64,000 nt of DNA from Candidatus Puniceispirillum sp. (GTDB taxonomy: Bacteria; Pseudomonadota; Alphaproteobacteria; Caedimonadales; UBA1908): positions 192,500 through 256,499 of the forward strand of contig PNJU01000002.1 of the NCBI GenBank assembly GCA_013822015.1, written 5' to 3'. Below are positions 5,132 through 44,240 of this stretch, piece after piece. Within the stretch, counting starts at the first letter, position 1; every line of letters begins with the position of its first letter. Made by a program: the position numbers and the translations under genes. Under the pieces are notes generated by a model. That model was not told where the DNA came from, did not search any database, and saw only the letters and a program-made list of their open reading frames with translations.

Positions 5132-5235
5132 ATGCGTGACTGTTTATCTAACCGACTTGTCCTTGATAACCTCGATTGGCAGAAAAAGCAACATGGGTTA
5201 GGATGGAAAATAAAATTTATTCTCGAGGGGATTTT

Positions 5236-5730
5236 ATGGATTTTAACCCAGCGCTTTGCCCGCCTTCCCCGTTCCATGCAACAGCTATCTATATGGATGG
5301 GTGTGGTATTCTTCTTCTAGGGCCCCCGGGCAGTGGAAAATCAGATTTGGCCTTGCGCTTGATCATGGAACGGGGGGCGCGCCTTGTTGCGGATGATCTG
5401 TGTGAAATTCTTCACAAACCAGATGGTCTGTGGGTACAGTGCCTCAAGGAAGGCGAGCGCCTTTTAGAAGTGCGCGGCCTGGGCATAGCCGCTATGGGTG
5501 AGGGACAATGGATCAAGTGTGCGCCCCTTGCCTTTGCGCTTCACCTTACCCGCGACAAAGACATTCCCCGCGAACCTGTCAGGCAAACCCTTCAAGGCAC
5601 CCACCTGCCCTTGTATGCATGCGACCCCTTTTGCGCCAGTGCGGCCGCTAAGATCAGCTTGCTTGTGCGCCACCATAAAGAAGAGGTGCGCCTGCTTTGG
5701 CCCGACACCCCCCTGCCCCATGCGGCCTGA
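5236..5730 (+). CDS. hprK: HPr kinase/phosphorylase C-terminal-domain protein (short alphaproteobacterial type)
   Basis: P-loop GILLLGPPGSGKSDLALRLI followed by GARLVADD. The ATG at 5236 is preceded by GAGGGG. The track start at 5176 lies only 45 nt from the tRNA and is probably too far upstream. Confidence 0.7.
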   Translation: MDFNPALCPPSPFHATAIYMDGCGILLLGPPGSGKSDLALRLIMERGARLVADDLCEILHKPDGLWVQCLKEGERLLEVRGLGIAAMGEGQWIKCAPLAFALHLTRDKDIPREPVRQTLQGTHLPLYACDPFCASAAAKISLLVRHHKEEVRLLWPDTPLPHAA

Positions 5731-5763
5731 CAGAGGCGCCCAACTACATGGAAAGATGTCATC

Positions 5764-6159
5764 ATGAACGCAAAATCACTTCTCGTGTCCTGTCTGGCAG
5801 TGCTTGCCTGCTGGCCCACCCATGCAGCAGGGGACGAGCTGACCCAAGGCCCCTTTGAATCGCCCTTCCCGCCCGCCCAAGCCTCTTTGGGTAGTTGTGA
5901 GCACGCCCTTGATGAGGAAGCGCTGGCACGCATCATGGGCGATTACCAAGCACAGCTGCGAACCCTCATGGGGACACTCTTTCCCCAAACGCAACCGCAC
6001 GCGCTCTCCTCTCAAGACGACACTGCACCCTCCTCCCCTGGCCCAAACGCAGCCCAGGGCAGTGATCTAACCCCCGCCTCAATATCTCAGGAGGCCTCAT
6101 TGACGGCCCCAACGGCATCCAGTGCAGGCTTCTTTCTGACCCAGGACGAGACGGCATAA
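5764..6159 (+). CDS. Small secreted hypothetical protein (131 aa)
   Basis: N-terminal signal-like sequence MNAKSLLVSCLAVLACWPTHAAGDE, with a P/S/T/Q-rich C-terminal half. No family recognised. Confidence 0.5.
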   Translation: MNAKSLLVSCLAVLACWPTHAAGDELTQGPFESPFPPAQASLGSCEHALDEEALARIMGDYQAQLRTLMGTLFPQTQPHALSSQDDTAPSSPGPNAAQGSDLTPASISQEASLTAPTASSAGFFLTQDETA

Positions 6160-6249
6160 GCACCCCCATGCGGCGCCCAGGGGCAACCCTTGGGCCGCCA
6201 TGCAGAGGAACGTTTTTTTCTGAAAAAGAAGTAATACTGACTTATTTTC

Positions 6250-6278
6250 TTGAATGTTTGCAAACATGTGTTTATTTT
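6250..6278 (+). promoter_or_regulatory. Candidate sigma70-type promoter with an embedded 14-nt perfect palindrome, upstream of the RNase III-like gene
   Basis: TTGAAT (6250-6255), a 17-nt spacer, then TATTTT (6273-6278). The spacer contains ATGTTTGCAAACAT (6254-6267), which is its own reverse complement. Confidence 0.25.
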
Positions 6279-6307
6279 GTACTGTTTTTTAACAGACAAG
6301 AAGGAAT

Positions 6308-8077
6308 ATGATGTCAATAAAACACCTCGGTCGACTGTTTCTCTCAGCAATGGTCGCAACCGCCCTGTACGCACAACCAAGCTGTGCGAGCAAACCCAAT
6401 AAAGAAAAAATCCCAGTCATCTGTGACCTTTTCTCCCAAGAAAATGATATCGATTATCCGGGGATTCAGGCGCACCTGCACTACACCTTCAAGGATCCCA
6501 TGCTCCTTAAAACCGCCCTTCGTCCCATGTTGCCCACGCCCCTACAGGGCGATAAAAACGCATATGACCTTCTAGAATTTCGTGGGGACGCGGTGCTTAA
6601 GCTGATCACGATGGACAGGCTCTTCGAGATCCTGCCCGGGCATATACGAGGACAGATGTCCACCTTGTGTGGAGACTTGGTGATGAATCACTGGTTGACA
6701 GAATACGCTCTGTGGAATTTGGATCTTGAGCGTTACTTACCTTGCCCCAGTGGATCTTACAAAGTCTGCGATGTCATGGAGGCACTCGTAGGCGCCGTTT
6801 ATGTGGATGGGGGCCCAAACGGACTTAGCCACGCCCGGCGCTTTGTCACCCTATTCTTGGACGATGAAACGCTCCATAACAAAATGCAAGAGATGTCTAA
6901 GACCTCTACACGCTTGGTCTTTACCCCCCAAATGACCCAGGATCAAAAGGATGCTCTGGCAAAGATCTGCAGGCCTGAGCGCCTAGGTAGTACCAACGCC
7001 AAGTCGCTGCTTAACGAGCTTCTTTTGGATCTCTTTGATGACAGGCCTGAATACACCACCCATTTTGAAAAGGGCGAGGATGGACATGTGCTTTTTCGCA
7101 CCCACGTCATTGGCGCCCAGATTGGCAAGACGAATCATGGCCACGGGCGCACCTGTCAAGAGTCTGAGGAAAATGCCGCCCGCCAGGCCATCAACACTCT
7201 GGCGCAAGCCCCCCTTTATTCCACCGGAAGCCCCAGTGGATCACCCAACAGCTTTCGTGTGCAACTGAAAGAAATGCTGGACTTTCTTGATCTTAAACTC
7301 ACAACGCGCAGCACAATGGAGGGAAAACCCCACGAACCCACCATTGGCTTTGAGTATCTTCTGGGTGAGAAACCCATCGGTGTTGGCCAGGGGTCCTCAA
7401 AAGCCCAGGCTGCAGAAATGGCGGCCGGGCAAGCCTGTGACGCCATCATCCAGTTAGAAGCGCAAAAACGCGCATCGCGCCACTCCTTAAGAGACTCTAT
7501 CTGGACAACACTCCAAGCCAACCGCGCAGCCCTGCAGGCCGCCACCCTCGCCAAACAAGCAGCTGCAGCCGCAGCAAGAAAAGCCGCCAAGACACCTGCT
7601 GTTTACTCGGCAAGTTCTGGAAGTGTTTTAGCGCCAGCGAGCGTGTCTTCTGCTACCGCCTCACCGGCTGCGTCCATCATCGGCACCGCTGTAGCAGCTT
7701 CAGTTGCTCCAGTAACCCCACCAGCGCCAACCCTGGTCACCTCTGTGCCAACAACGCCACCTGCTGCATCCGTGACCAACACCACGGTGGTTTCGACATC
7801 GGCGGCTTCAGTCCCCGCCCCCACAAAAACAGTGACATCCCAGGCAAATAAAGCCAAAGGAAATGGAAAACTGCCCAAACAAGGGCACATCCAAAAACCA
7901 AAGCCACCTGTGGCCACGGGCGCCCCGTCGGTTGCTGTGTCGCCACACAAGGGCAAAACCCCACAGTATGTTGGACCAAAGGCTGGTCCCAGAGCTCACA
8001 TAAAGATGCAACCTCAAACCAATGGAGCCCAAAAACCAGGATCTACCTCGTCCCATGCGCCAGTAAAAGCGGCCTAA
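6308..8077 (+). CDS. Signal-peptide-bearing RNase III-like protein with two dsRNA-binding domains and a low-complexity tail
   Basis: 589 aa. The leader is MMSIKHLGRLFLSAMVATALYAQPSCAS. The RNase III signature is LLEFRGDAVL...CDVMEALVGAVYVDGG, with the catalytic E/D positions retained. dsRBD 1 is AKSLLNELL...PEY...GHVLFRTHV...GHGRTCQESEENAARQAINTL. dsRBD 2 is GKPHEPTIGFEYLLGEKPIGVGQGSSKAQAAEMAAGQA. The C-terminal ~190 aa are A/P/S/T/V-rich and end lysine-rich. Confidence 0.8.
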   Translation: MMSIKHLGRLFLSAMVATALYAQPSCASKPNKEKIPVICDLFSQENDIDYPGIQAHLHYTFKDPMLLKTALRPMLPTPLQGDKNAYDLLEFRGDAVLKLITMDRLFEILPGHIRGQMSTLCGDLVMNHWLTEYALWNLDLERYLPCPSGSYKVCDVMEALVGAVYVDGGPNGLSHARRFVTLFLDDETLHNKMQEMSKTSTRLVFTPQMTQDQKDALAKICRPERLGSTNAKSLLNELLLDLFDDRPEYTTHFEKGEDGHVLFRTHVIGAQIGKTNHGHGRTCQESEENAARQAINTLAQAPLYSTGSPSGSPNSFRVQLKEMLDFLDLKLTTRSTMEGKPHEPTIGFEYLLGEKPIGVGQGSSKAQAAEMAAGQACDAIIQLEAQKRASRHSLRDSIWTTLQANRAALQAATLAKQAAAAAARKAAKTPAVYSASSGSVLAPASVSSATASPAASIIGTAVAASVAPVTPPAPTLVTSVPTTPPAASVTNTTVVSTSAASVPAPTKTVTSQANKAKGNGKLPKQGHIQKPKPPVATGAPSVAVSPHKGKTPQYVGPKAGPRAHIKMQPQTNGAQKPGSTSSHAPVKAA

Positions 8078-8096
8078 AACCCTTGGCCTAGACTTT

Positions 8097-8127
8097 TGGG
8101 TTAGCGCTGTGGAGGGGCGCTAACCCA
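8097..8127 (+). terminator. Hairpin downstream of the RNase III-like gene (no U-tract)
   Basis: TGGGTTAGCGC tgtggaggg GCGCTAACCCA: an 11-bp perfect stem 20 nt after the stop codon. Confidence 0.35.
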
Positions 8128-8336
8128 GCGGGCCTGAGAAAGTGCACCTCAATCCCCGCCCTCCCGCACTCAAATCCCGTCATGGCACGCACACAATAAT
8201 CGGCACCACTTAGCCCAAGAGAGCCAAAGGATGAAAAAATGGGCTGGTAATATAAGCCACTCACTCTTTCCCTATATCCATAATTAACAACTTTCTCTTG
8301 ACTCTTGTGATCTCTCCACTTTTTTTTCATTTTTTA

Positions 8337-8394: not shown

Positions 8395-9303
8395 ATGACA
8401 TATATTAAAGCCCTTACACTTTGCACACTACTGGCACATATTCCCCTTTACGCATCAAGCGGAGTCCTTGACGTTGTTGAGCCCACATCCTCAAAACCAA
8501 CGCGGTCCATGCCTGCAGTATTATCAACGCTGCCCGAGACCATGCAGGCCTTGCACACCATCAAATCCATGTGCAAACCTGAGGAGCGTCTTCAGTTTAC
8601 GGCCTCCTCTAAATGGTACTCGCCCACTGCAGCAAATGTTCACACTGTTCTTTCCCACGATTTTTCCCCCTCACATCTGGGCGCGGCCCTGCGCTTTTGC
8701 GCCTCCATTACAACTGAGAACGCGCCCTTTCTAAAGGCAGTTCTTAAAGGCGCGACGTGGCAAATGTCCTTGGATCTTTTACCAGCATCTTTGGGGCTTT
8801 CCCATGAGGTTCTGCAGGGAGCAGCAGGCATTGAAGATCTGAGTGCACGCCTCACATTCCTCAAGCAATCACCACGCCCAGACACCTGGGTCCTTGGCAT
8901 GTTGGGTTCTGATCCCCTCATTGATAGCGCCGTCTTGGAGCACCACGTGAGAGAGCGCATCCTTATGAATCCCATCGGCATGAGCGCATTTTTTGTCAAA
9001 AGCCTCAAGCATGGCGATACGCTCACGCGCATGCGCCTGACAAGTTTTCTTCTCCACACGGATCCTTTGAGCGTGGGCGCGCATTTAAGTGATAAAAAAG
9101 CCCGTTTTGAAAAAATTGGGTTTCGCCAGAACTCACGCCTTGCAAGGACCCTCGACGCAAAGAAAGTGCTACCGCCCTTTGGGTTTCTGCTTGACCGCAG
9201 CCCAGACGGCAATGTCACACGCATCACCACGCGTTATCCAGACTTCTGGGCTCCTTTGCCGGCATGGACCCACTCACCGTCCCAGCACCGCCCTGTAGAA
9301 TAA
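8395..9303 (+). CDS. Secreted hypothetical protein, paralog family A member 1 (302 aa)
   Basis: Leader MTYIKALTLCTLLAHIPLYASSG. It shares a core with three other ORFs in the window: WY.PT...F.P.HLGAALR...ENAPFLK.VL...LLPA.LGLS...RL.FL...PRPDTW..GMLG.DPL.D...F.V..LK.G...TRMR.T.FL...PD...P.P.WT..PS. Confidence 0.75.
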   Translation: MTYIKALTLCTLLAHIPLYASSGVLDVVEPTSSKPTRSMPAVLSTLPETMQALHTIKSMCKPEERLQFTASSKWYSPTAANVHTVLSHDFSPSHLGAALRFCASITTENAPFLKAVLKGATWQMSLDLLPASLGLSHEVLQGAAGIEDLSARLTFLKQSPRPDTWVLGMLGSDPLIDSAVLEHHVRERILMNPIGMSAFFVKSLKHGDTLTRMRLTSFLLHTDPLSVGAHLSDKKARFEKIGFRQNSRLARTLDAKKVLPPFGFLLDRSPDGNVTRITTRYPDFWAPLPAWTHSPSQHRPVE

Positions 9304-9435
9304 TCATACGTCGCCTCGCTTTTCTTTGCCAAAGGCGGGGCGCACGACCATTTGCCCATACAAAGGGATGCCATTGACCTTCCTGCATAACCCTTTAGAA
9401 TGAAAAACATACGCGGCCTTACATGAGGTGACGGC

Positions 9436-10200
9436 ATGTTCTATGTTTGGGTTTTTCTGACCTTTGTTGCCCTTACGCGTGAAGACGCCTTCGCGTCATC
9501 CCATAATGACGTCTCCCAAACATTTGAGGAAACCTCTCACCCTTCCTTCAAAAGAGCCCTTGATTGGTACCCACCAAGCGAGGATGAGATGAAAACCGTC
9601 ACGTCCTGGGGATTTGAGCCCGCACATATGGGGGCAGCCCTACGCTACCGTGCTTTTATCAAGTCCGAAGATACACCCGTCCTTCAAAAGGTACTTGCTA
9701 GCGCCCCTTGGGAGGAGGCTTTTTCCATGATTGCACGCGCTGCCGGGGCGCACGCGACGGACCTTGCGCTTGCAGCTACCCTCCCCCTTCCAGAGCGCCA
9801 AGAATTCCTCAGGGGCAGCCCAAGAGAAGACACCTGGATTTACGCACATATTGGCCTTGATCCCGATATCGACATGCATGTGATGACCTACCATATGCGG
9901 CGCCTGCTGGGTGAAAACCGCCCCCAAACAGAGGAGACTCTCCTCAACATGGTCTGCGCGCGTGACGAGCTCACCAAAAAACGCGTCGCAACATTTTTGT
10001 GGAACGCGCTTTACGATGAGCACTTCGGATACTGTTCTCGTTACGCGGCCCTGGGAATTATTGACGCCTCCCCCCTCATGAGACAGGTTCAGCATATGCG
10101 AGGGCTTGTCTTGCACGGCCTTGTGCATGAAGGAGCTGACGGCACCTCCAAAGGTCGCCTGCGCGTCGTTGCACCCTGGCTTGCCCCCGCCCGCCTTTAA
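9436..10200 (+). CDS. Secreted hypothetical protein, divergent family A member 2 (254 aa)
   Basis: Hydrophobic N-terminus MFYVWVFLTFVALTREDAFASS, with no basic n-region. It keeps the N-terminal family A motifs (WYPPSEDEM..GFEPAHMGAALRYRAF...DTPVLQKVL...SPREDTWIY), but the C-terminal third diverges. RBS is GAGGTGA. Confidence 0.65.
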   Translation: MFYVWVFLTFVALTREDAFASSHNDVSQTFEETSHPSFKRALDWYPPSEDEMKTVTSWGFEPAHMGAALRYRAFIKSEDTPVLQKVLASAPWEEAFSMIARAAGAHATDLALAATLPLPERQEFLRGSPREDTWIYAHIGLDPDIDMHVMTYHMRRLLGENRPQTEETLLNMVCARDELTKKRVATFLWNALYDEHFGYCSRYAALGIIDASPLMRQVQHMRGLVLHGLVHEGADGTSKGRLRVVAPWLAPARL

Positions 10201-10244
10201 AGGTAATACCCGTAATTCCTTGGCAGTTTATAGAAATTTGTTTT

Positions 10245-10273
10245 TTGACAAATGAGGAAGAAGGGGTTAGTGA
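10245..10273 (+). promoter_or_regulatory. Candidate promoter of family A gene 3
   Basis: Perfect TTGACA (10245-10250), a 17-nt spacer, then TAGTGA (10268-10273). The ORF-track start at 10245 is the TTG of this hexamer. Confidence 0.3.
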
Positions 10274-10310
10274 TGAAGAGTCGGTGCGGTTTTTCCAGGA
10301 GTCACACACC

Positions 10311-11282
10311 ATGCGTACACTCGCCTCTCTCACCCTTGCGATCCTTTTTTCTTGTAGTTCCCTTTACGCGTCCAACGCACACAAGCGCAAAATAGATGAG
10401 CTCATAGGCTCAGACTCTGACTCAGACTCAGACTCAGACTCAGAGACATTTATGCCTATCAGTGCACACGTGGCCCTTGGCCAGGAGGAAGGAGGCGAGC
10501 CATATATCCCCGAAGACCTTGTGCCCCATCTCAAGACCTTTGTATCCCCGTGCGATCCCGAAAAAGAAATGGATCAGTTTATTGAACCCCTCGCGTGGTA
10601 CCGCCCGACACCCGAGGAGCTGACTTCCATCACGACCATGGGATTCGAGCCTCGTCACCTGGGCGCGGCCCTGCGCATGCGCGCGCACCTAACGCTTGAG
10701 AACACGCCCCTGCTTAAAGGAGTGCTCAAAGACAGTGATATCCCACAATCCCAGCGTTTGCTGCCCGCCGCCATGGGCCTTTCGAACGGGCAACTCAGAG
10801 CGGCGGCAAAGATTGAGAACATCGAAGAACGCCTCAATTTTCTCATCAATGCACAAAGGGAGGACGCGTGGATCTTTGGCATGCTAGGCGCCGACCCAAT
10901 CCTTGACAACCTCGCCATCAACGCCAACATGAGGGCACGTGTTCTTATAAACCCAGACAAGATGAGCTCGTTTTTCATCCGCAACCTCAAAGAAGGGACC
11001 AACATCACACGGATGCGTTTCACAGGCTTCCTTAGCGAGCTGACCGGCTTAATTACCGACAAGCTCAGCCGCGCAAACCGACTGGGATTTGAGGACAACT
11101 CCCACGTCATGGAAACCGTCAAAAAGAAAGGCCTTCCCCGCCCCTTTAGCGCAATCTTCTGGGAAATGCGCCTCAATGATGGCAAGGTCATGCCACGTAT
11201 CACAATCAAAAAGCCCGATTACCTCGACCCCATGCCCCTGTGGACCTATAAGCCGTCCACTTATCTCGACCCTATCCCATGA
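10311..11282 (+). CDS. Secreted hypothetical protein, family A member 3, with an (SD)n tract
   Basis: The ATG at 10311 is preceded by AGGAG. Leader MRTLASLTLAILFSCSSLYASNA, then an SDSDSDSDSDSE tract, then the full family A core (WYRPTPEELTSITTMGFEPRHLGAALRMRAHLTLENTPLLKGVL...GMLGADPILD...PDYLDPMPLWTYKPSTYL). Confidence 0.75.
   Translation: MRTLASLTLAILFSCSSLYASNAHKRKIDELIGSDSDSDSDSDSETFMPISAHVALGQEEGGEPYIPEDLVPHLKTFVSPCDPEKEMDQFIEPLAWYRPTPEELTSITTMGFEPRHLGAALRMRAHLTLENTPLLKGVLKDSDIPQSQRLLPAAMGLSNGQLRAAAKIENIEERLNFLINAQREDAWIFGMLGADPILDNLAINANMRARVLINPDKMSSFFIRNLKEGTNITRMRFTGFLSELTGLITDKLSRANRLGFEDNSHVMETVKKKGLPRPFSAIFWEMRLNDGKVMPRITIKKPDYLDPMPLWTYKPSTYLDPIP
10409..10446 (+). repeat. In-frame hexanucleotide microsatellite (TCAGAC/GACTCA)n encoding (Ser-Asp)n
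   Basis: ctcagactctgactcagactcagactcagactcagag: about 5-6 tandem 6-nt units inside family A gene 3. Confidence 0.85.
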
Positions 11283-11386
11283 GGTAGCGCGCCAGCGCTC
11301 TCTCACGCAGAAAAAATGGTGCTTAAAGACTCCCACAAGAAACGCGATCGTCATTAATTATTTATTGTATTGTTTTTTTATTATAC

Positions 11387-11415
11387 TTGACAATAAAACT
11401 ATGATCTGATATTTC
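11387..11415 (+). promoter_or_regulatory. Candidate promoter in an AT-rich intergenic region
   Basis: Perfect TTGACA (11387-11392), a 17-nt spacer, then TATTTC (11410-11415), within the visibly AT-rich stretch 11350-11420. Confidence 0.3.
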
Positions 11416-11482
11416 AAGCATCGGACAGTAAAAGTGCCGTTCTTATTCACTTGTCCCGGCACAAGAAAGGAGAAGTAACATC

Positions 11483-12664
11483 TTGCGTAAACTATTAGCC
11501 AGCGCTGGCATTTTTATTCAATTCACATCATTTGCATTCGCATCGGACCCCACCCTACAAGACCTGCACTTGGTCATTGGCTCGACCCGAGGCGGATATT
11601 TGTCCCAACCTCTGGCAAAAAGAGTTTACCAGGAGGCAAACGCAGACCTATCCCACGCGGGTACATTCTCGGGAAAAGCCATCACCGTTGACATCGCTCC
11701 CTGCGAAAACCCCAAACTTGCAAAACGTCACTGGCAAGCGGACGCGGAAACCTTTGAGTTTCCGGGCACCATCCAAAATGTTTATCTTGAAAGGCTGTTT
11801 ACCTTTGACCAAAAATCGGGTGATCACACAAAAGACCATATCTCGAACGTCCTTCAAAATCTCACAAAGCACATGATTCCTGCTCAGAACAAGGTTGAGA
11901 TTGAGTGGCACCCTTGCGTCGGCATGGCGTATCTGCCCCCCAAGGCGAGTAAAGAGGAAAGGGAGCACATCCTTAACACCCAAAGGCGACAAAATCCTTT
12001 TCAGGGCGTCATGGATATTAACGAAGTTCTCACCGCCACCAAACTTGCTGTTTTCGACAGTGTGAACTTAGACGGCGTACCCAACAAGTCCTACATTGAT
12101 GCGGCCAATGCTTTTAAAAAACCCCTCACCCAGCTCATCAACTTTTATGTGGGCTCGAAGCCTAGCCTCGTGCGCACGCAGCTGATTCAACGTCTGAGAT
12201 TTGAAGCCAATGTTTTGACGCTGTTAAGCCAAGATCCGAACAAAAGATCTGTCCCCCTTCTGGGCTCCATTACCGCTGATTTCGGCAAATTAGATGACAC
12301 AACATTTTCAGTAGTCGCATCAGATCCAGAAGACGACGGTAAAATTTTGGTACGTGACCGCCAGGGTTATTCTTATCTTTATGACACGCAAGAAGAGGTC
12401 GCAAAAGCCGTTTCCAGAGGGGGTACTGTGCGCGGCGTCCTCCATGGTTATATGTCCTTTATGACTGGCTCTTGCCTCAATTTCTTGTGGAGCGATATGG
12501 CTGTTGAGATTCAAAAAGGGCTTGTCCAAGAAAAGCTTGCCTCACTCGGTTTTCGTGCCATTGAGATCAAGCGTAAAAAGAGCCCACACAACCGCCGTCA
12601 AAATGTTCATATCATCAGCACGGTTTATGACCCAGGCAACGCTGTAGAAGAACAAAAAGCCTAA
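11483..12664 (+). CDS. Secreted hypothetical protein (393 aa, TTG start)
   Basis: TTG start preceded by AAGGAGAAG. Leader MRKLLASAGIFIQFTSFAFASDP. No recognisable domain. Confidence 0.6.
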   Translation: MRKLLASAGIFIQFTSFAFASDPTLQDLHLVIGSTRGGYLSQPLAKRVYQEANADLSHAGTFSGKAITVDIAPCENPKLAKRHWQADAETFEFPGTIQNVYLERLFTFDQKSGDHTKDHISNVLQNLTKHMIPAQNKVEIEWHPCVGMAYLPPKASKEEREHILNTQRRQNPFQGVMDINEVLTATKLAVFDSVNLDGVPNKSYIDAANAFKKPLTQLINFYVGSKPSLVRTQLIQRLRFEANVLTLLSQDPNKRSVPLLGSITADFGKLDDTTFSVVASDPEDDGKILVRDRQGYSYLYDTQEEVAKAVSRGGTVRGVLHGYMSFMTGSCLNFLWSDMAVEIQKGLVQEKLASLGFRAIEIKRKKSPHNRRQNVHIISTVYDPGNAVEEQKA

Positions 12665-12773
12665 AGCACCCCTCCCATGACCGACGTCTGAATCCTTTTT
12701 CAGATGTCGGTCACTGTTCTCATTATGCCGCAACTGACCTTTTCCAGAAGCCAACATTACTGTCAAAAAAAAC

Positions 12774-12801
12774 TTGAAAAGAAGAAATATCTTCCTATAT
12801 A
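12774..12801 (+). promoter_or_regulatory. Candidate promoter of the UIM-like/CAP gene
   Basis: TTGAAA (12774-12779), a 16-nt spacer, then TATATA (12796-12801), with an A8 tract immediately upstream. Confidence 0.35.
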
Positions 12802-12880
12802 CATAAGAGCATTGGGAGATTTTATGACACTCTCCTCAATATTTCTTCTGTCCACTCCCTCAAACAATAGGACGACCCAC

Positions 12881-13969
12881 ATGAAAAATCTGAAGAAAAT
12901 CCTCCTCGTTTCACTTCTAACAAGCGGCGCCTTTGTAGCTAGCGCGACTCATTATTCAGACGAGGAAATGAACGCCATGGCAGCTGCTGCCAGAATCAGC
13001 CTCCATGACCTACGCGCACTTGGTCAGCAGATGCCCTTGGATGATTTCTACGCCCCCGTTGCGTACATGTTCGCAGCTCAAGAGGGGCGCGGCGCATCGG
13101 ACCAAGCCACAAACGACTATCTCTTTGCCCGTCAGCTGGCACAAGGCAACACAAGCACTCCAAGAATGTCTGAACCCGACGCTGATTTTCTCCTTGCCCT
13201 GCGCCTTTGCGAAGAGGGGCCTCAGGCGCCAAGCACACGCTCTGCGGCCACACCGTCCCCTCAGCCTCACGCCCCGCAAGACACAGAAGCTGATTTAGAG
13301 CTTGCTCTGCGCCTCTACGAAGAAGAAAGTCAAGCTCGGTTTGTGCCCACAACCATATCCCCTACCCTCCTTGGGACCACGCATGCGCCGCACGTGAGCG
13401 TTCAGGACGAGGACTACCTCCTTGCCATGAGGCTCTTTGAGGAAGAAAGGCAAGCTGCGTCCACGGTGCGCGTCATATCTACGCAAGCACCGCAAACCGC
13501 TGCATCTTCTCACGTCGCTGCCCCGAGCCAGGAAGATGAGGAACGCTCCTTTTTTGATCTGACCAACGCACGTCGCCAGGAGCACGGCCTTGGGCTTCTG
13601 ACATGGAACCCGCTGCTTGCCCAGATCGCCCGGGAGCACTCCCAAAAAATGGCCGATACCTTCACCTTTGCCCATGACATTGAAGGCAAGAGCTTTGGTG
13701 ATCGCATTGAAGGGCGCTACAACGGCTCCATGGCCGGGGAAAACTTATATATGTCTACAGCTGCCTACAAAGTGAGCGAGCGCGGCATCACCCCTTCTTC
13801 TGTGAAGTATTCATCCATGGCAGAGGCCGTCGAGGGGCTCATGAACTCACCAGGACACAGGGAAAATATTTTGAAGCCAGAGTTTAATGAGCTTGGCGTA
13901 GGAATTATCGTCACCGCCCTTGGTGGGCAGAAGTACTGGACGCAAGTGTTTGGCAGGAAGCAGGACTAA
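12881..13969 (+). CDS. Secreted protein with tandem UIM-like acidic/LALRL repeats and a C-terminal CAP/SCP/PR-1 (YkwD-like) domain
   Basis: The ATG at 12881 is preceded by AGGA. Leader MKNLKKILLVSLLTSGAFVASA. Repeats are DEEMNAMAAAARISLHD, NDYLFARQLAQG, PDADFLLALRLCEEG, TEADLELALRLYEEE and QDEDYLLAMRLFEEE. C-terminal CAP motifs are FFDLTNARRQEHGL...AREHSQKMA...GENLY...LMNSPGHRENIL...FNELGVGI...YWTQVFG. Confidence 0.75.
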   Translation: MKNLKKILLVSLLTSGAFVASATHYSDEEMNAMAAAARISLHDLRALGQQMPLDDFYAPVAYMFAAQEGRGASDQATNDYLFARQLAQGNTSTPRMSEPDADFLLALRLCEEGPQAPSTRSAATPSPQPHAPQDTEADLELALRLYEEESQARFVPTTISPTLLGTTHAPHVSVQDEDYLLAMRLFEEERQAASTVRVISTQAPQTAASSHVAAPSQEDEERSFFDLTNARRQEHGLGLLTWNPLLAQIAREHSQKMADTFTFAHDIEGKSFGDRIEGRYNGSMAGENLYMSTAAYKVSERGITPSSVKYSSMAEAVEGLMNSPGHRENILKPEFNELGVGIIVTALGGQKYWTQVFGRKQD

Positions 13970-14002
13970 ACCCATCTTATTCCTTACTTGAGAGCACCAC
14001 GC

Positions 14003-14032
14003 CAGATGCCGTTTCACCAGAAACGGCATCTG
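14003..14032 (+). terminator. Hairpin downstream of the UIM-like/CAP gene (no U-tract)
   Basis: CAGATGCCGTTTC acca GAAACGGCATCTG: a 13-bp perfect stem with a 4-nt loop, 34 nt after the stop. Confidence 0.4.
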
Positions 14033-14286
14033 TGCTGCCCCCCCCTCTTTGATGTGGCCCCTGCATCTTGCGTGAGATGACGTTGTGGCATATCTGCGCA
14101 GTGAAGCGCCATCAGGGAAAATTGGCAGAAGCGACACTACCAGCTTAGACTGCGACCACACGGAGGCAGACGCTTAAACCAACCAAGGCTCACATAGAAG
14201 CCTTTGGAACACAAGATAGGCCGGAGCCAGCACCGACTTCCCCTTTGACCTGATTCATTAACCTTAAAATCTCCCACATATTCGCT

Positions 14287-14315
14287 TTGACAAGAAGCAT
14301 AAAAGTTTCCATGCT
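14287..14315 (+). promoter_or_regulatory. Candidate promoter of family A gene 4
   Basis: Perfect TTGACA (14287-14292), a 17-nt spacer, then CATGCT (a weak -10). The ORF-track start at 14287 is the TTG of this hexamer. Confidence 0.25.
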
Positions 14316-14346
14316 TTCCAGTGTGTCAACACAGGAGAAGAGCACT

Positions 14347-15300
14347 ATGAAATCTATTTTTTATGCGACATCCTTAGTCCTTAGCTTTCTCACGATCGCC
14401 CCACATATCCAGGCATCAAATAGTCCTTTGGATGCCCTTGATGTAGAGGAAGGGACGAAAACCGTGCGCCCCGTCGGACTTGACGTTGCTCTTAATGTCG
14501 GATACGGCAACGAAATAAACATACCAAGCACACTCGTCCAAAGTCTGAATGACTTTGTCACGTCATGCGCCGGTAAAAGTGAGATGAATCAGTTCCACAG
14601 CCCCTTCATGTGGTATCGTCCCACGCCAGAAGAACTCACGCGCATTTCCGACCTTGGGTTCGCGTCATGTCACCTTGGTGCGGCCCTACGCATGCGCGCG
14701 CATCTCTCTTGCGAGAACGCGCCTCTTATCCAAAGAGTGTTAAGAGACAGCAGCTACGCAAAAGCACAGTTTCTGCTCCCTGCCGCCATGGGGCTTTCCC
14801 ACACACAGCTTGAAGAGGCCGCCAACATCGAAGACGTTCAGGAGCGTCTCGATTTCTTGATACAAGCCCCACGCCCAGATACATGGGTTTATGGTATGCT
14901 GGGGGCGGATCCCCTTCTTGATCACCTGGCCATCGAGACGAGTATCAGGACGCGCATTGCAAATAACCCAGACCTGATAAGTTCGTTTTTCGTTCGCAAC
15001 TTGAAGGAAGGCACAGATCTCACGCGCCAGCGCATCACGGGGTTTCTTTTGCAAGTCACCGGGAATGTGTCCGAGGGAAAAACACGCGCAGAACACCTTG
15101 GCTACAGCAAAGTGTCAAACGTTGTACACGCCCTTCAAAAGAAAAAACTCAAACGCCCCTTTGGCCTCTTCCGCGAAGCGTTTCCTTTCACTGATGGCAG
15201 CGCAGGCACGGATCTTAAAAATCACACGCCCGATTATCTTGATATAATGCCCCAATGGACATACACTCCGTCGACCTATCTCAAGCCTCGGCGCTCATAA
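14347..15300 (+). CDS. Secreted hypothetical protein, family A member 4
   Basis: The ATG at 14347 is preceded by AGGAGAAG. Leader MKSIFYATSLVLSFLTIAPHIQASNS. Full family A core, closest to member 3 (WYRPTPEELTRISDLGFASCHLGAALRMRAHLSCENAPLIQRVL...GMLGADPLLD...PDYLDIMPQWTYTPSTYL). Confidence 0.75.
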   Translation: MKSIFYATSLVLSFLTIAPHIQASNSPLDALDVEEGTKTVRPVGLDVALNVGYGNEINIPSTLVQSLNDFVTSCAGKSEMNQFHSPFMWYRPTPEELTRISDLGFASCHLGAALRMRAHLSCENAPLIQRVLRDSSYAKAQFLLPAAMGLSHTQLEEAANIEDVQERLDFLIQAPRPDTWVYGMLGADPLLDHLAIETSIRTRIANNPDLISSFFVRNLKEGTDLTRQRITGFLLQVTGNVSEGKTRAEHLGYSKVSNVVHALQKKKLKRPFGLFREAFPFTDGSAGTDLKNHTPDYLDIMPQWTYTPSTYLKPRRS

Positions 15301-33531: not shown

Positions 33532-36500
33532 GTGCCCACACTTGCCCTGTCATATGACGTTTGTTTTCAGGATCTTTACACGGCAAAAGGGATTGCACGC
33601 ATCGACGCGCATTTCCTCGATTGGCTTGAAAAGCAGGCACCAAACGCCCACGAAACGCTCATCACGCTGAGAAAAAAACCCATTTCGGACAAGAGCCCCG
33701 CTTACAGCGATTTTCTTGTGACCTTAGCGCCCTACGCGGCGCGCTTTGCGCAGCATCTTTTTCAAGTTCCCCCGCTTCAAAATCCCCTTGAAGGATTGCA
33801 AAAGCTTGCGGACTTTCGAAGGCTCTTCGTGGGCAAGCGCGTCCTGCCCGGACTCAAGGACGGCACCATCTCGCCCCTTTTTGACGAAGCGCTTGACGCC
33901 ATGGACGAGGTGGATTTTGCAACCAGGGCCTTGGGCGGAGATGATCCTGACTTCGTGGCACGCACCCTCGCTCACACGGCGTGGGCTGTGACACAAGACA
34001 AACCGCGCAAGCTTTTTACTGGCCCCCAGCCGACTGACTATGACCATCTTCTTGACGCGCACGAGACCCCTCGGGGCATTGTCGCATGCAAAACCCACCC
34101 GCGCATGGGGTTTGATCTGACCCACACACCCCTTGCCCCCCAAGACGCCTTTCTTGAGGCCAGAGCCTGTCTATATTGCCACAAAAGAGATAAGGACTCC
34201 TGCGCCAAGGGTCTGAGAAGCCCTGACGGCATTCCCCAAACAAATCCGCTGGGCGAGGCATTGACGGGCTGCCCCCTGGGGCAAAAAATTTCCCAGATGG
34301 CGTATCTCAAGGCCCAAGGCGAGCCTCTGGCGGCCCTCATTGTTGCCTGCCTTGACAATCCGCTTCTGGCGGCAACGGGGGACCGGATTTGCACGGATTG
34401 CTCCCGCGCGTGCATCTTTCAAAAGCAAACGCCCATCGATATCCCCGCCCTTGAAAGTGCCATCTTTGAGGAGGTCCTTCACAGCCCCTGGGGCTTTGAG
34501 ATCTACAGCCTTTTCACCCGCTGGTCTCCCCTGTCCTTGACCCGCCCTGTGCCAGGCGACTCTACCGGTCACACGCTCCTTGTGGCGGGGATGGGGCCCA
34601 GCGGCATCACCATGAGTCACCATCTGATGAACGCAGGCCACACCGTCGTGGCGCTGGAGGGACTGGCGGTGGCCCCTGTGTCCCACGATCTTCTGACAAC
34701 CCCCATTTATGACGTGAATGAGTCCCTCTACACACCCCTTTCCCAGAGGCAGGTCAGTGGTTTTGGAGGGGTGGCAGAATACGGCATCACCGTGCGCTGG
34801 GACAAAAACCGTCTGATGATCCTGCGCCTTTTGTTGGAGCGTCGTAAAGAATTCACTCTCCTTGGCAGCACCCGCCTTGGTAGTCAAATCACGCCCCAGC
34901 AAGCCCTGGGCATGGGCTTCTCCCACGTCGCCCTATGCTTAGGGGCCGGCGCCCCCCATGTGCCAGACAACGTCGACACGCTCCCGCGCGGCGTGCGCAC
35001 GGCGTCGGACTTTCTCATGACCCTCCACACGGGCGGCGCCTACCTTGAGAATTCCTTCAGTACACTGACCCTGCGCCTACCTCTTTATGTCCTGGGCGGG
35101 GGGCTGACGGCTGTGGACACGGCGACGGAGGCCCTTGCTTACTATCCTCTTCAAGTGAAGCGCTTTGCCCGGCGCTACCGCCAGCTTGTGGAGGCCACAA
35201 GCAAGGAAGAAACAAATGCCCTTTGGACCACTCAAGAGCATGAAGAGGTCGCAACTTTTCTCGCGCACGCGCGCGCCCTTGAAGAGGAAGACGCCCTTGC
35301 CCAAAAAGAATCGCGCGCACCAAATTATCTGCCCCTCCTCACTGCTTGGGGTGGCGCACACATTCTTTATCGCAGCGCCCTCACCAAGGCCCCCGCTTAC
35401 CGCAAAGGCGCCCATGAGCTTCAAATGGCACTGGAAGAAGGCATCGTCGTGCAGAACGAGACCCAGCTTCACAGCCTGATCACTGACGCCCAGAACCGCT
35501 TGACCGGCCTACGTGTGACGCGCAGTGGTGCCTTGGAGGATCTGCCGGCTGGCACCCTTCTCATTGCGTCGGGCACCCTGGAGAACGCGCAGCTCCCCCG
35601 CACCCAGGATCCCCGCATCTCTTTTCACGGAGATATGGACGACGCTTACCGGGGCAGCGTCGTGGGCGCCATGGCCAGCGCCACCCACGGTGCCCGCGCC
35701 ATCTGTGAAACCCTTTCCCACCAGACCCCGGCACCCACAGGCGCGCAGGATCTCGCAAAAGCTCTTAGGAAAGATACCCAGGCTTACGTGGAAAGCCTCA
35801 TACAGCTCACCCCCACCACCTGGGAAATTATCCTTTTTACGCCGGCAGCCGCGCGCGCCTTCCAGCCTGGCCAATTTTTCCGCCTCCAGTGTGCCACAGG
35901 GCCCTTTAAGACCGAGCCGCTTGCCCTCACTGGCGCCCATGTGGACGTAGACAAAGGACTCCTGTCCCTCATTATTCTTGATAGCGGCGCCAGCAGTTAT
36001 CTCACAGGTTTTCTTAAGAAAGGTGATCCTGTCAGTCTCATGGGGCCCACGGGCGCGCCTACGCCCCTTCCCCATGGCAAAAAAGTGCTCCTCATTGGGG
36101 GTGGCCTTGGGAACGCGGTCCTGTTCTCCATTGGCAGGGCGCTAACGTCGCGAGGGTGCCACGTGCTTTATGTGGCTGGTTATCGCAGCGCTGAACATAT
36201 TTTCAAAAAAGAAGATGTAGAGGCGAGCTCTACCCAGGTGATCTGGGCCTGCGAAGAAGGCGCTGCCCCTGCCCCAGGACGTCCGGGTGACGTGGCAGTA
36301 ACTGGTACAGTCATTGACGCGCTGGGGGCTTACACACGGGCACCTCATGCAAGCTGCTTGAACGGCGCACCTGATTTTGTCCTGACCATTGGATCCGCAG
36401 GCATGATGGAGGCGGTTGCACACGCCATGGGGGATCCTTTCTTCAATAAAGCACGCACATTGGCGAGCCTCAACAGCCCCATGCAGTGTATGATGAAGGG

Positions 36501-36693
36501 CATTTGTGGCGCGTGTTTGCAACCAGGGCGTGACGCGCGCACAAAAAAGAGGTATATGTTTTTTTCTTGTACCTGCCAAGATCAGCCGTTACAAGAAATT
36601 GACTTCGTGTCTCTCAAGGCACGACTTACGCAAAACATATTAGAAGAGAAATTAAACAGCGCGTGGGTACGCAAGGTTCCGCCCCCCGCCTAA
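33532..36693 (+). CDS. Large fused FAD/NAD(P)-dependent oxidoreductase (GltD/NfnB-like module plus PyrK/NfnA-like ferredoxin-reductase module)
   Basis: 1053 aa. Cys clusters are CLYCHKRDKDSC...GCPLGQ...CTDCSRAC. The dinucleotide fold is LLVAGMGPSGITMSHHLMNAGHTVVALE. The C-terminal FNR-like part has FQPGQFFRL...LLIGGGLGNAVLFSIG and a [2Fe-2S]-type motif CMMKGICGACL...FFSCTC. Confidence 0.7.
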   Translation: MPTLALSYDVCFQDLYTAKGIARIDAHFLDWLEKQAPNAHETLITLRKKPISDKSPAYSDFLVTLAPYAARFAQHLFQVPPLQNPLEGLQKLADFRRLFVGKRVLPGLKDGTISPLFDEALDAMDEVDFATRALGGDDPDFVARTLAHTAWAVTQDKPRKLFTGPQPTDYDHLLDAHETPRGIVACKTHPRMGFDLTHTPLAPQDAFLEARACLYCHKRDKDSCAKGLRSPDGIPQTNPLGEALTGCPLGQKISQMAYLKAQGEPLAALIVACLDNPLLAATGDRICTDCSRACIFQKQTPIDIPALESAIFEEVLHSPWGFEIYSLFTRWSPLSLTRPVPGDSTGHTLLVAGMGPSGITMSHHLMNAGHTVVALEGLAVAPVSHDLLTTPIYDVNESLYTPLSQRQVSGFGGVAEYGITVRWDKNRLMILRLLLERRKEFTLLGSTRLGSQITPQQALGMGFSHVALCLGAGAPHVPDNVDTLPRGVRTASDFLMTLHTGGAYLENSFSTLTLRLPLYVLGGGLTAVDTATEALAYYPLQVKRFARRYRQLVEATSKEETNALWTTQEHEEVATFLAHARALEEEDALAQKESRAPNYLPLLTAWGGAHILYRSALTKAPAYRKGAHELQMALEEGIVVQNETQLHSLITDAQNRLTGLRVTRSGALEDLPAGTLLIASGTLENAQLPRTQDPRISFHGDMDDAYRGSVVGAMASATHGARAICETLSHQTPAPTGAQDLAKALRKDTQAYVESLIQLTPTTWEIILFTPAAARAFQPGQFFRLQCATGPFKTEPLALTGAHVDVDKGLLSLIILDSGASSYLTGFLKKGDPVSLMGPTGAPTPLPHGKKVLLIGGGLGNAVLFSIGRALTSRGCHVLYVAGYRSAEHIFKKEDVEASSTQVIWACEEGAAPAPGRPGDVAVTGTVIDALGAYTRAPHASCLNGAPDFVLTIGSAGMMEAVAHAMGDPFFNKARTLASLNSPMQCMMKGICGACLQPGRDARTKKRYMFFSCTCQDQPLQEIDFVSLKARLTQNILEEKLNSAWVRKVPPPA

Positions 36694-44116: not shown

Positions 44117-44240
44117 TATTTCTCTCTCCAAGTGTTATAAACAGCAACTTAACGTCGACACCATTATAAGGCGCGCCATAAGCTGGCCTGACATATAGGA
44201 AGAAAAAAACACCCTGTCAACGAAACGGGAAAAATAAATT
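44073..44240. repeat. Dispersed direct repeat, copy 1 (leader plus 5'UTR/promoter of family C gene 1)
   Basis: agggctgtcgccaaa..cattgttttaaaaaggttattgtgcattattt.tctctccaagtgttataaaca...cttaacgtcgacacc...ggcgcgccataagctggcctgacatataggaagaaaaaaacaccctgtcaac recurs almost verbatim at 45583-45750. Confidence 0.85.

What the first reader, a model, noticed from the sequence alone, without database searches (positions are those of the whole stretch)
12881..13969. Secreted protein combining UIM-like repeats with a CAP/SCP/PR-1 domain
After the leader come five short helix-type motifs at aa ~26-44, 77-89, 98-113, 134-149 and 175-190. They fit acidic-acidic-hydrophobic-x-L-A-x-R-L-x-E-E-E. Examples are TEADLELALRLYEEE, QDEDYLLAMRLFEEE, PDADFLLALRLCEEG and EEMNAMAAAARISLHD. 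This closely resembles the eukaryotic ubiquitin-interacting motif (for example the Hrs EEEELQLALALSQSE pattern), but only the first copy keeps the conserved Ser. The C-terminal ~150 aa carry YkwD/CAP motifs (GENLY, NSPGHRENIL, YWTQVFG). A secreted bacterial protein with tandem ubiquitin-binding-like motifs would be a eukaryote-mimicking architecture. The ubiquitin link is inference from motif resemblance alone.
Basis: partly seen in the sequence, partly recalled or inferred. Interest (0 to 1): 0.65.

Follow-up and report, generated by a model that had tools for sequence, protein, structure and literature searches.

The report
Symbiont secreted protein with ubiquitin-reader-like helices
A bacterium from a group that lives inside single-celled eukaryotes encodes an exported protein with four short helices that closely match a known eukaryotic ubiquitin-binding motif (the MIU, or "inverted UIM"), joined to a CAP/PR-1 domain; this suggests, but does not prove, that it latches onto host ubiquitin.

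Summary
The ORF at 12881-13969 (+) is real. It has a Sec-type signal peptide, a C-terminal CAP domain (Pfam E 1e-17), and four repeated helices, not five. The repeat core is D-hydrophobic-x-L-A-x-x-L followed by acidic residues.

The repeats are not canonical UIMs: Pfam UIM gives no hit and there is no Ser at Ala+4. They match the inverted form, MIU. A profile built only from the bacterial repeats retrieves MINDY-1, RNF168, RNF169 and Rabex-5 MIUs as its best matches in the whole PDB. An HMM built only from those eukaryotic MIUs picks this ORF, at exactly the four repeats, as its only hit in the window. Column-shuffled controls fail.

That module plus the signal peptide is shared with a 20-member family. 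That family has MIU-like helices but a different, unknown C-terminal domain.

A nearly identical MAG is classified as Caedimonadales (Holosporales sensu lato), a lineage described as obligately host-associated. The gene lies in a fast-evolving island of secreted orphan genes.

Ubiquitin binding and delivery to the host remain untested.

The parts
12881..13969 (+). Gene for the 362-aa exported MIU-like/CAP protein (stop codon included)
   Evidence: ORF and translation. Identical to NCBI MAG protein C0514_02325. The orthologue P0002/P0114 is 83-84% identical, and the more distant P0003 shares the same start.
12869..12872 (+). AGGA, a Shine-Dalgarno-like sequence 8 nt upstream of the ATG at 12881
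   Evidence: Read from the sequence. Inference only. It supports the start at 12881 rather than NCBI's 12704.
12881..12946 (+). Signal peptide, aa 1-22 (MKNLKKILLVSLLTSGAFVASA), with a likely cleavage site after A-S-A
   Evidence: Read from the sequence. The peptide is unusually conserved with the P0093 family (M-K/E-N-F-x-K...SLLMSGSF); hhalign of A1 vs A3 gives probability 96% over the first 58 columns.
12947..13081 (+). Conserved N-terminal module, aa 23-67 (helix, GxS-type turn, helix, helix).
   Evidence: 91% identical to P0002, against about 70% in the linkers. It aligns with 13 relatives. Predicted helices are 27-36, 41-50 and 53-67. Its profile finds no UIM or MIU in the PDB.
13109..13150 (+). 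MIU-like helix 1, aa 77-90 (TNDYLFARQLAQGN), central Ala83. This is the copy shared by all four CAP/P0093-type relatives.
   Evidence: P0093 has DDYLFALRLDEEE and P0003 has QDYVLALALEE at the same place.
13178..13219 (+). MIU-like helix 2, aa 100-113 (DADFLLALRLCEEG), central Ala106
13286..13327 (+). MIU-like helix 3, aa 136-149 (EADLELALRLYEEE), central Ala142
   Evidence: Compare MINDY-1 MIU2, DLELAQQLQQEEYQ.
13406..13447 (+). MIU-like helix 4, aa 176-189 (DEDYLLAMRLFEEE), central Ala182
   Evidence: Compare MINDY-1 MIU1, DQDYLIALSL.
13553..13951 (+). CAP/SCP/PR-1 (YkwD-like) domain, aa 225-357
   Evidence: Pfam PF00188, E 1e-17, above the gathering score. NCBIfam YkwD subfamily domain, E 2e-20, below its cutoff. 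PDB 4ifa_A, E 1.3e-14.
14003..14032 (+). Perfect 13-bp inverted repeat with a 4-nt loop, 34 nt after the stop codon. Terminator-like hairpin without a T run.
   Evidence: The consensus terminator scan, which requires a T tail, did not list it.
8395..15300 (+). Context: a 7-kb island of six same-strand orphan genes. The five translated here, including the target, start with signal-peptide-like sequences. Four are paralogues (8395-9303, 9436-10200, 10245-11282, 14287-15300).
   Evidence: No Pfam or NCBIfam family. Paralogy shown. dN/dS is 0.17-0.30 here against 0.02-0.11 in flanking genes when compared with the CAED1 MAG.

Best explanation
The gene encodes an exported host-interaction protein of a protist-associated alphaproteobacterium.

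After Sec export and signal-peptide cleavage, the mature protein has three parts: a small conserved helical N-module; four single amphipathic helices of the MIU type (inverted ubiquitin-interacting motif), separated by 9-26-residue Pro/Ser/Thr/Ala/Gln-rich linkers; and a C-terminal CAP domain.

Proposed mechanism (inferred, not shown): each helix presents one face (Asp at -4, Leu/Phe at -1, Ala at 0, Leu at +3, then acidic residues) to the Ile44 patch of host ubiquitin, as Rabex-5, RNF168/169 and MINDY-1 MIUs do. Four weak sites on flexible linkers would give avid binding to poly- or multi-ubiquitinated host material. This would either bring the CAP domain there or occupy ubiquitin chains near the symbiont.

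Shown here: the gene, the domain layout, the reality of the repeats, the sequence-level match to MIUs, the modular N-terminal cassette, and the fast evolution.

Inferred: cleavage of the signal peptide, release from the periplasm to the host, ubiquitin binding, and what the CAP domain does.
For: 1. Bacterial profile against the PDB. A profile of only this family's 10 repeat units, searched against all 177,635 PDB sequences, gives two hits at E<=10. Both are ubiquitin-binding helices: the MINDY-1 tandem MIU and an Rpn10 UIM.
2. Wider bacterial profile. With 24 units from both bacterial families, 11 of 17 hits are MIU or UIM chains. Every MIU protein that turned up in these PDB searches is among them: MINDY-1 E 5.7e-4, RNF168 MIU2 0.0032, RNF169 0.035, Rabex-5 about 0.9, RNF168 MIU1 about 2. 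A column-shuffled control finds none.
3. Profile-profile comparison. hhalign against six MIU sequences copied from those PDB alignments gives 96.3% probability in exact register. Using only the unbiased 10-unit profile gives 90.7%. The shuffled control gives 0.4%.
4. Reverse test. An HMM built only from those eukaryotic MIUs, searched against all 634 six-frame segments of the window, hits only this ORF (E 3.5e-4; next best 5.4). Its four domains fall exactly on the four repeats.
5. Conservation. Core positions are identical at 19 of 20 sites between the window protein and P0002, while linkers are about 70% identical. Asp at -4 occurs in 20 of 24 units and Ala at 0 in 24 of 24.
6. Helicity. The repeats are predicted helical. 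The homologous segment in P0093 is helical at pLDDT about 90.
7. Modularity. The signal peptide, N-module and MIU-like helices recur on a different C-terminal domain in 20 proteins.
8. Lineage. Trigger factor is 99% identical to that of MAG CAED1. CAED1 is classified by GTDB as Caedimonadales/UBA1908, 1.88 Mb (PMC9723799). Holosporales sensu lato are described as obligately associated with eukaryotic hosts (PMC11909080).
9. Evolution. dN/dS is 0.20, against 0.02-0.11 for neighbouring housekeeping genes.
10. Precedents. Mycobacterium tuberculosis PtpA has a UIM-like region (PMC5048167), and the surface protein Rv1468c has a UBA domain (PMC6488588).
Against: - There are no binding data and no complex model; the tools would not accept ubiquitin as input.
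- The only export signal is a Sec leader, which by itself takes a protein only to the periplasm. No secretion system or host was identified in the window.
- The motif is short. Individual E-values are modest, and short PDB peptides gain several bits: RNF168 MIU2 scores 20.5 bits as a 49-aa chain but 14.7 bits (E 0.23) in the full-length protein.
- Position Ala+4 is A/C/Y/F here. Canonical MIUs have Gln, and the Leu-Gln pair is called 'highly conserved' in PMC5824887.
- In the window protein the helices are predicted with pLDDT of only 32-44.
- Similar (F/L)-x-x-A-L-x-L-x-E-E helices occur in TPR/PPR repeats, which produced spurious hits.
- In the sister family the gene sits in conserved synteny next to lipid A genes. 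That could point to an envelope role.
- CAP/YkwD proteins are common extracytoplasmic proteins of free-living bacteria.
Confidence: 0.45

Rival explanations
1. The protein is an envelope or periplasmic CAP-family protein. Its repeated acidic amphipathic helices are spacers or docking sites for a bacterial partner (or self-association). The likeness to MIUs is convergence on a simple Leu/Ala/Arg/Glu helix pattern and has nothing to do with ubiquitin.
For: - The only export signal is a Sec leader, and no dedicated secretion signal was found.
- Bacterial CAP/YkwD proteins are widespread extracytoplasmic proteins. There is a weak NCBIfam match to the divisome-associated lipoprotein DalA. Most homologues are from Bacillus and similar bacteria.
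- The sister-family gene always lies next to lpxB-lpxI-lpxA.
- TPR and PPR helices give spurious matches to the same region.
- Gln at Ala+4 is missing.
Against: - Order-specific, two-way profile matches to MIUs survive shuffled controls.
- The helices are isolated, not packed in pairs as in TPR or PPR repeats.
- The family is restricted to a few lineages, and its nearest classified relative belongs to a host-associated order.
- The gene evolves quickly and sits in an island of secreted orphans.
Confidence: 0.33
2. The helices are host-directed mimics, but of a different helical motif or target. Candidates are another ubiquitin-like protein (NEDD8, or ATG8 through its UIM-docking site), or MIT domains through an ESCRT-III MIM1-like pattern (D/E-x-x-L-x-x-R-L).
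For: - Copies 2-4 read D-x-x-L-x-x-R-L, the first two-thirds of the MIM1 pattern as I recall it (general knowledge, not tested).
- RNF168 MIU2 is reported to bind NEDD8 chains (PMC7226360).
- The aromatic or Cys residue at Ala+4 departs from canonical MIUs.
Against: - The bacterial profiles retrieved no ESCRT-III/CHMP chain from the PDB at E<=10, whereas MIU and UIM chains dominated the list.
- The Arg is absent in copy 1 and in many family members.
- The final Leu-Lys/Arg of MIM1 is replaced here by Glu-Glu.
Confidence: 0.12
3. The helices act within the same protein. They would fold back on the CAP domain (or on the unknown domain in the sister family) as a pro-region or autoinhibitory segment that is removed or displaced after export.
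For: - The same cassette precedes two unrelated C-terminal domains. An export or chaperone pro-region could show that pattern.
- The signal peptide and N-module are more conserved than the rest of the N-terminal region.
Against: - The structure models show no packing of the helices on the C-terminal domains. They are isolated helices or one long free helix.
- Copy number varies from 1 to 5, which is unusual for a fitted pro-region.
- It does not explain the specific MIU-like residue pattern.
Confidence: 0.05

Closest known systems
MIU / inverted UIM (Rabex-5, RNF168 MIU1 and MIU2, RNF169 MIU2, MINDY-1 tandem MIU)
   Same: Both are single helices with Asp at Ala-4, Leu at Ala-1, an invariant central Ala, Leu at Ala+3, acidic or Gln-rich flanks, and often tandem copies. 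These are the best PDB matches to the bacterial profiles, and the match holds in both directions. The Ala, or the Leu-Ala pair, is the residue mutated to abolish binding in RNF168 (A179G/A450G, PMC2699339) and MINDY-1 (L415A/A416G, PMC4942677).
   Different: The protein is bacterial and Sec-exported. Ala+4 is Ala/Cys/Tyr/Phe rather than the usual Gln (PMC5824887). The four copies are separated by long Pro/Ser/Thr-rich linkers. The partner domain is CAP rather than a RING, GEF or DUB domain. Binding is untested.
UIM (Pfam PF02809; S5a/Rpn10, ZFAND2B)
   Same: Both have an acidic run, a hydrophobic residue, a central Ala and an L-A-L-x-L-like core. Rpn10 and ZFAND2B UIMs appear as weaker PDB matches.
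   Different: Pfam UIM gives no hit, although the same library detects S5a UIM peptides. None of the four copies has the hallmark Ser at Ala+4 (two copies in P0002 do). The invariant Asp at Ala-4 points to the opposite helix polarity.
Bacterial CAP/SCP/YkwD proteins (e.g. PDB 4ifa; Bacillus CAP proteins with the CAP_assoc_N domain)
   Same: The C-terminal domain is a clear CAP domain containing the motifs GENLY, SPGHRENIL and YWTQVFG.
   Different: No other CAP protein found carries this N-terminal cassette; only three protein clusters do. Typical bacterial partners are CAP_assoc_N, LysM, CvpA or copper amine oxidase-like domains.
Bacterial ubiquitin binders: M. tuberculosis PtpA (UIM-like region) and surface protein Rv1468c (UBA domain)
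   Same: These are exported or surface bacterial proteins that use a eukaryote-type ubiquitin-binding element (PMC5048167, PMC6488588).
   Different: They use different motifs or domains, in single copies, and come from an unrelated organism. Their binding has been measured; here it has not.

Membership tests
MIU (motif interacting with ubiquitin / inverted UIM) | Core residue pattern in register: Asp at Ala-4, Leu at Ala-1, invariant Ala, Leu at Ala+3. Derived here from six MIU sequences copied out of PDB alignments. | tested here: met
   All four window copies carry D, L/F, A and L at these positions. The reference MIUs were aligned. hhalign gives 90.7-96.3% probability in register. The MIU-only HMM finds the four copies.
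MIU (motif interacting with ubiquitin / inverted UIM) | Gln at Ala+4 (the Leu-Gln pair is called 'highly conserved' in canonical MIUs, PMC5824887; RNF168 MIU1 has Ser) | tested here: not met
   The window copies have A, C, Y and F at Ala+4. Only 3 of 24 units across the bacterial families have Gln. For this reason I call the repeats MIU-like and do not file them as canonical MIUs.
MIU (motif interacting with ubiquitin / inverted UIM) | Forms a single free alpha-helix | tested here: inconclusive
   AF2 predicts isolated helices at 75-87, 101-111, 136-151 and 177-194, but with pLDDT of only 32-44 from a 3-sequence alignment. The homologous segment of P0093 is helical at pLDDT about 90.
MIU (motif interacting with ubiquitin / inverted UIM) | Binds the Ile44 patch of ubiquitin, with loss of binding when the central Ala is mutated | not testable with these tools
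   A complex prediction with ubiquitin was not possible because inputs are restricted to window and hit sequences. Wet-lab work is needed.
UIM (Pfam PF02809) | Match to the Pfam UIM model | tested here: not met
   No hit at E<=10 for each unit or for the whole N-terminal region. As a positive control, S5a UIM1 and UIM2 peptides score 17.2 and 27 bits.
UIM (Pfam PF02809) | Conserved Ser four residues after the central Ala | tested here: not met
   0 of 4 copies in the window protein and 2 of 4 in the orthologue P0002.
CAP / SCP / PR-1 superfamily (Pfam PF00188) | Full-length match above Pfam's gathering score | tested here: met
   65.5 bits against a cutoff of 21.1, covering model positions 1-117 of 117 and aa 225-357.
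NCBIfam TIGR02909 spore_YkwD subfamily | Score above the curated cutoff (171 bits) | tested here: not met
   72.9 bits. The protein is related to this subfamily but is not a member.
Secreted effector of an intracellular symbiont | Protein reaches the host compartment, and the organism is host-associated | not testable with these tools
   Only indirect evidence: a Sec-type leader (sequence), a 99%-identical housekeeping gene in a MAG classified as Caedimonadales, and the order's host-associated lifestyle as described in the literature.

The most novel reading that the evidence does not exclude
Protist-associated Caedimonadales-like bacteria carry a portable N-terminal 'ubiquitin-addressing' cassette. 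It consists of an unusually conserved Sec signal peptide, a small helical module, and one to five MIU-type helices. If so, these would be the first tandem MIU ubiquitin readers described in bacteria, evolved or assembled independently of the eukaryotic ones and used to target ubiquitinated host structures.
Probability: 0.3. Interest if true: 0.75.

Novelty: new variant of a known kind. Interest (0 to 1): 0.62.

Why it matters
Intracellular bacteria are known to interfere with host ubiquitin, mostly through ligases and deubiquitinases. Simple ubiquitin "reader" motifs in bacterial proteins are rare, and I found no paper describing MIU motifs in a bacterial protein in the searchable library.

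If these helices bind ubiquitin, three things follow:
- It would be a clear case of a eukaryotic short helical motif being copied or re-invented by a little-studied group of protist symbionts.
- It would give a first functional handle on the Holosporales-type host interaction, for which the review notes that mechanisms are poorly understood (PMC11909080).
- It would assign a context to a bacterial CAP domain and to a completely uncharacterised all-alpha domain.

The claim can be tested directly with a small recombinant fragment.

Tried and rejected
- **Pfam and NCBIfam on the repeats.** No UIM or other family was found on the units, the N-terminal region, or the relatives. I first read this as evidence against ubiquitin binding. 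The control then showed that Pfam does not detect genuine MIUs either, so the result is uninformative for MIU.
- **Single-sequence phmmer of the repeat region against the PDB.** It gave only designed PPR proteins, through summed weak repeat matches. Rejected as spurious.
- **Word-indexed homology search with the N-terminal region alone.** It found nothing, not even the query's own database entry. I treated this as a tool limitation. The exhaustive search replaced it.
- **P0094, a TPR protein hit (E 3.6e-4).** Rejected as a compositional or TPR-helix look-alike.
- **The 'first copy' as a UIM.** Rejected.
- **LIR/AIM motif** ([WFY]-x-x-[LIV]). It does not fit, because Ala occupies the +3 position.
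- **Other carriers of the cassette in the window.** None found.
- **Literature searches for bacterial UIM or MIU arrays.** No direct precedent found.
Full report
**The gene.** The ORF at 12881-13969 (+) encodes 362 aa. NCBI's copy of the same protein (MAG protein C0514_02325, labelled "Candidatus Puniceispirillum sp.") starts 59 codons upstream. The first 22 residues look like a Sec signal peptide ending in A-S-A; this is read from the sequence. The C-terminal part, aa 225-357, is a full-length CAP domain (Pfam PF00188, 65.5 bits, E 1e-17). Its closest solved relative is 4ifa_A, an "extracellular protein containing a SCP domain". A perfect 13-bp hairpin follows the stop codon.

**The repeats are real, but there are four.**
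- The pattern D-[hydrophobic]-x-[LF]-A-x-x-L occurs at central alanines 83, 106, 142 and 182.
- None of 100,000 shuffles of the N-terminal region had three or more matches. The rest of the window's six-frame translation (128,000 residues) has only three.
- Copies 2-4 share 8-9 of 15 residues and 27-32 of 45 nucleotides.
- AlphaFold predicts each copy as an isolated helix between coil linkers, at low confidence because only three sequences were available.
It belongs to a conserved 45-residue module that aligns with a "helix, G-x-S, helix" element in 13 relatives.
- A profile of that element finds designed helical repeats and XRE-type HTH proteins in the PDB, and no ubiquitin-binding motif.

**UIM or MIU.**
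- Pfam's UIM model gives no hit on any unit or on the whole N-terminal region at E<=10. The same library does detect S5a UIM peptides (17 and 27 bits), so the repeats are not canonical UIMs.
- The residue pattern agrees. The UIM hallmark Ser at Ala+4 is absent in all four copies, while Asp at Ala-4 is present in all four. That is the arrangement of the inverted motif, MIU.
- Pfam detects none of the genuine MIUs I gave it (Rabex-5, RNF168, RNF169, MINDY-1), so its silence says nothing about MIUs.

I therefore tested the resemblance directly, in both directions.
- *Forward, unbiased profile.* A profile of the 10 repeat units of this protein and its two relatives, searched against all 177,635 distinct PDB sequences, returned two hits at E<=10. 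They were the MINDY-1 tandem-MIU peptide (DQDYLIALSL and DLELAQQLQQEEYQ) and an Rpn10 UIM.
- *Forward, wider profile.* A 24-unit profile that adds units from the sister family returned 17 hits, of which 11 are MIU or UIM chains:
  - MINDY-1, E 5.7e-4;
  - RNF168 MIU2, E 0.0032;
  - RNF169 MIU2, E 0.035;
  - full-length RNF168, ZFAND2B, Rabex-5 and RNF168 MIU1, with weaker E-values.
- *Shuffled control.* The same profile with its columns permuted found five unrelated hits.
- *Profile against profile.* hhalign against six MIU sequences copied from those PDB alignments gave 96.3% probability in exact register. The unbiased 10-unit profile gave 90.7%, and the shuffled control gave 0.4%.
- *Reverse.* An HMM built only from the eukaryotic MIUs, run over all 634 six-frame segments of the window, hit only this ORF (E 3.5e-4; next best 5.4). 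Its four domains fall exactly on the four repeats.

Caveats on these tests:
- Short peptide chains gain bits in HMMER. RNF168 MIU2 scores 20.5 bits as a 49-aa chain and 14.7 bits in the full-length protein.
- The sister-family units were picked with an MIU-shaped regular expression.
- Canonical MIUs usually have Gln at Ala+4 (PMC5824887), where this protein has Ala, Cys, Tyr or Phe.

For these reasons I call the repeats MIU-like rather than MIUs.

**Relatives and modularity.**
- An exhaustive HMMER scan of 1.84 billion representative proteins with the N-terminal region found only two CAP-bearing relatives (P0002, P0003), one protein with a different C-terminal domain (P0093, E 2.3e-9), and a spurious TPR protein.
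- P0093 belongs to a family of 20 proteins. They share the same, unusually conserved signal peptide and N-module; hhalign gives 96% probability over 58 columns.
- Their linkers hold one to five MIU-like helices, for example DEYLARQLAAEE, DAHLARQLQ and DAELARKLALEE.
- Their conserved all-alpha C-terminal domain has an invariant His and a near-invariant Cys. It has no Pfam, NCBIfam or PDB sequence match. A confident model (pLDDT 80) has no Foldseek match in the PDB.
- In that model the MIU-like segment is a long helix at pLDDT about 90.
- The cassette is therefore portable between cargo domains.
- The sister-family gene always lies next to lpxB-lpxI-lpxA. This may only reflect vertical inheritance, but it keeps an envelope role open.

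**Organism and evolution.**
- The only related genome in the species-level collection is MAG CAED1, and gene order is conserved.
- Trigger factor is 99% identical between the two genomes.
- CAED1 is classified by GTDB as Alphaproteobacteria, Caedimonadales, family UBA1908. It is 1.88 Mb with 52.8% GC and comes from a phosphorus-removal reactor (PMC9723799).
- Against this near-identical background the target protein is only 84% identical, with dN/dS 0.20.
- The whole island of six signal-peptide orphans at 8395-15300 shows dN/dS of 0.17-0.30, against 0.02-0.11 for flanking genes.
- Within the protein, the MIU core positions are conserved at 19 of 20 sites, while the linkers are about 70% identical.

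**Interpretation.**
- The best-supported reading is an exported host-interaction protein whose four MIU-like helices, on flexible linkers, bind host ubiquitin multivalently and bring along, or are anchored by, the CAP domain.
- Single ubiquitin-binding motifs are weak (Kd 30-300 uM) and typically act in tandem (PMC7226360).
- Precedents for bacterial ubiquitin readers exist in Mycobacterium tuberculosis: the PtpA UIM-like region and the Rv1468c UBA domain.
- I found no description of MIU motifs in bacterial proteins.
- Untested steps: signal-peptide cleavage, escape from the periplasm, ubiquitin binding, and the role of the CAP domain.
- The main rival is an envelope protein whose acidic amphipathic helices only resemble MIUs by convergence. 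I give it about one chance in three.
- Smaller rivals are a different host target (NEDD8, ATG8 or MIT domains) and an intramolecular pro-region.

**Verdict.** The finding is a new variant of a known kind: bacterial mimicry of a eukaryotic ubiquitin-binding motif, in a new tandem form and a new domain combination. Interest is 0.62.

Noticed in passing
P0093 and P0095-P0113 (loci L004-L007); not in the window: A 20-member family shares the target's signal peptide, N-module and MIU-like helices but carries a different all-alpha C-terminal domain. Conserved motifs are SDVHVLDNYVFG, REVWSRAWTLALNLY and EGHxTRGGCIQGRIDRGFVGY, with an invariant His and a near-invariant Cys. The AF2 model is confident (pLDDT 80) yet has no Foldseek match in the PDB and no Pfam, NCBIfam or PDB sequence match. 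The gene always lies next to lpxB-lpxI-lpxA.
   Followed up: partly
window 8395-9303, 9436-10200, 10245-11282, 14287-15300 (+): Four paralogous orphan genes with no Pfam or NCBIfam family; the three translated here begin with signal-peptide-like sequences. Two of them are 49% identical, and they share a block W-Y-R/P-P-T/S-x-E-E... G-F-E-P-x-H-L/M-G-A-A-L-R. They surround the target gene and diverge quickly: 55-86% identity to CAED1, where housekeeping genes are 99% identical.
   Followed up: partly
window 6308-8077 (+), within about 5220-8318: A 589-aa protein with a signal-peptide-like N-terminus, an RNase III domain and a dsRNA-binding motif, much longer than ordinary bacterial RNase III. 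It and ORF 5764-6159 lie in a roughly 3.1-kb stretch that is absent from the otherwise syntenic CAED1 locus.
   Followed up: partly
window 12704-12880: NCBI's annotation starts this gene at the upstream ATG (421 aa). All homologues start at 12881, which has an AGGA 8 nt upstream, so the deposited gene model is probably 59 codons too long.
   Followed up: yes
whole window / L001: NCBI labels the source MAG 'Candidatus Puniceispirillum sp.'. However, a MAG whose trigger factor is 99% identical (CAED1) is classified by GTDB as Caedimonadales, family UBA1908. The NCBI label is probably wrong.
   Followed up: partly
window 14003-14032: A perfect 13-bp inverted repeat with a 4-nt loop lies 34 nt after the stop codon. 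It has no T tract, so it is a terminator-like hairpin that the consensus scan did not list.
   Followed up: no
window 33532-36693 (+) and 41945-44131 (-): Two large ORFs (1053 and 728 aa) have no Pfam family at E<=1e-5. They sit among ordinary housekeeping genes (PolA, ClpB, SecA, CcmF).
   Followed up: no
P0047, P0072 (hits): These CAP-domain proteins have an N-terminal AN1-type zinc finger and a membrane-spanning stretch. This is another unusual CAP fusion, apparently from high-GC, acidic-proteome organisms.
   Followed up: no
(tool behaviour): The word-indexed homology search with the 200-aa N-terminal region returned nothing, not even the identical database entry. The exhaustive HMMER scan found the relatives. 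Negative results from the indexed search on low-complexity or repeat-rich queries should not be trusted.
   Followed up: yes
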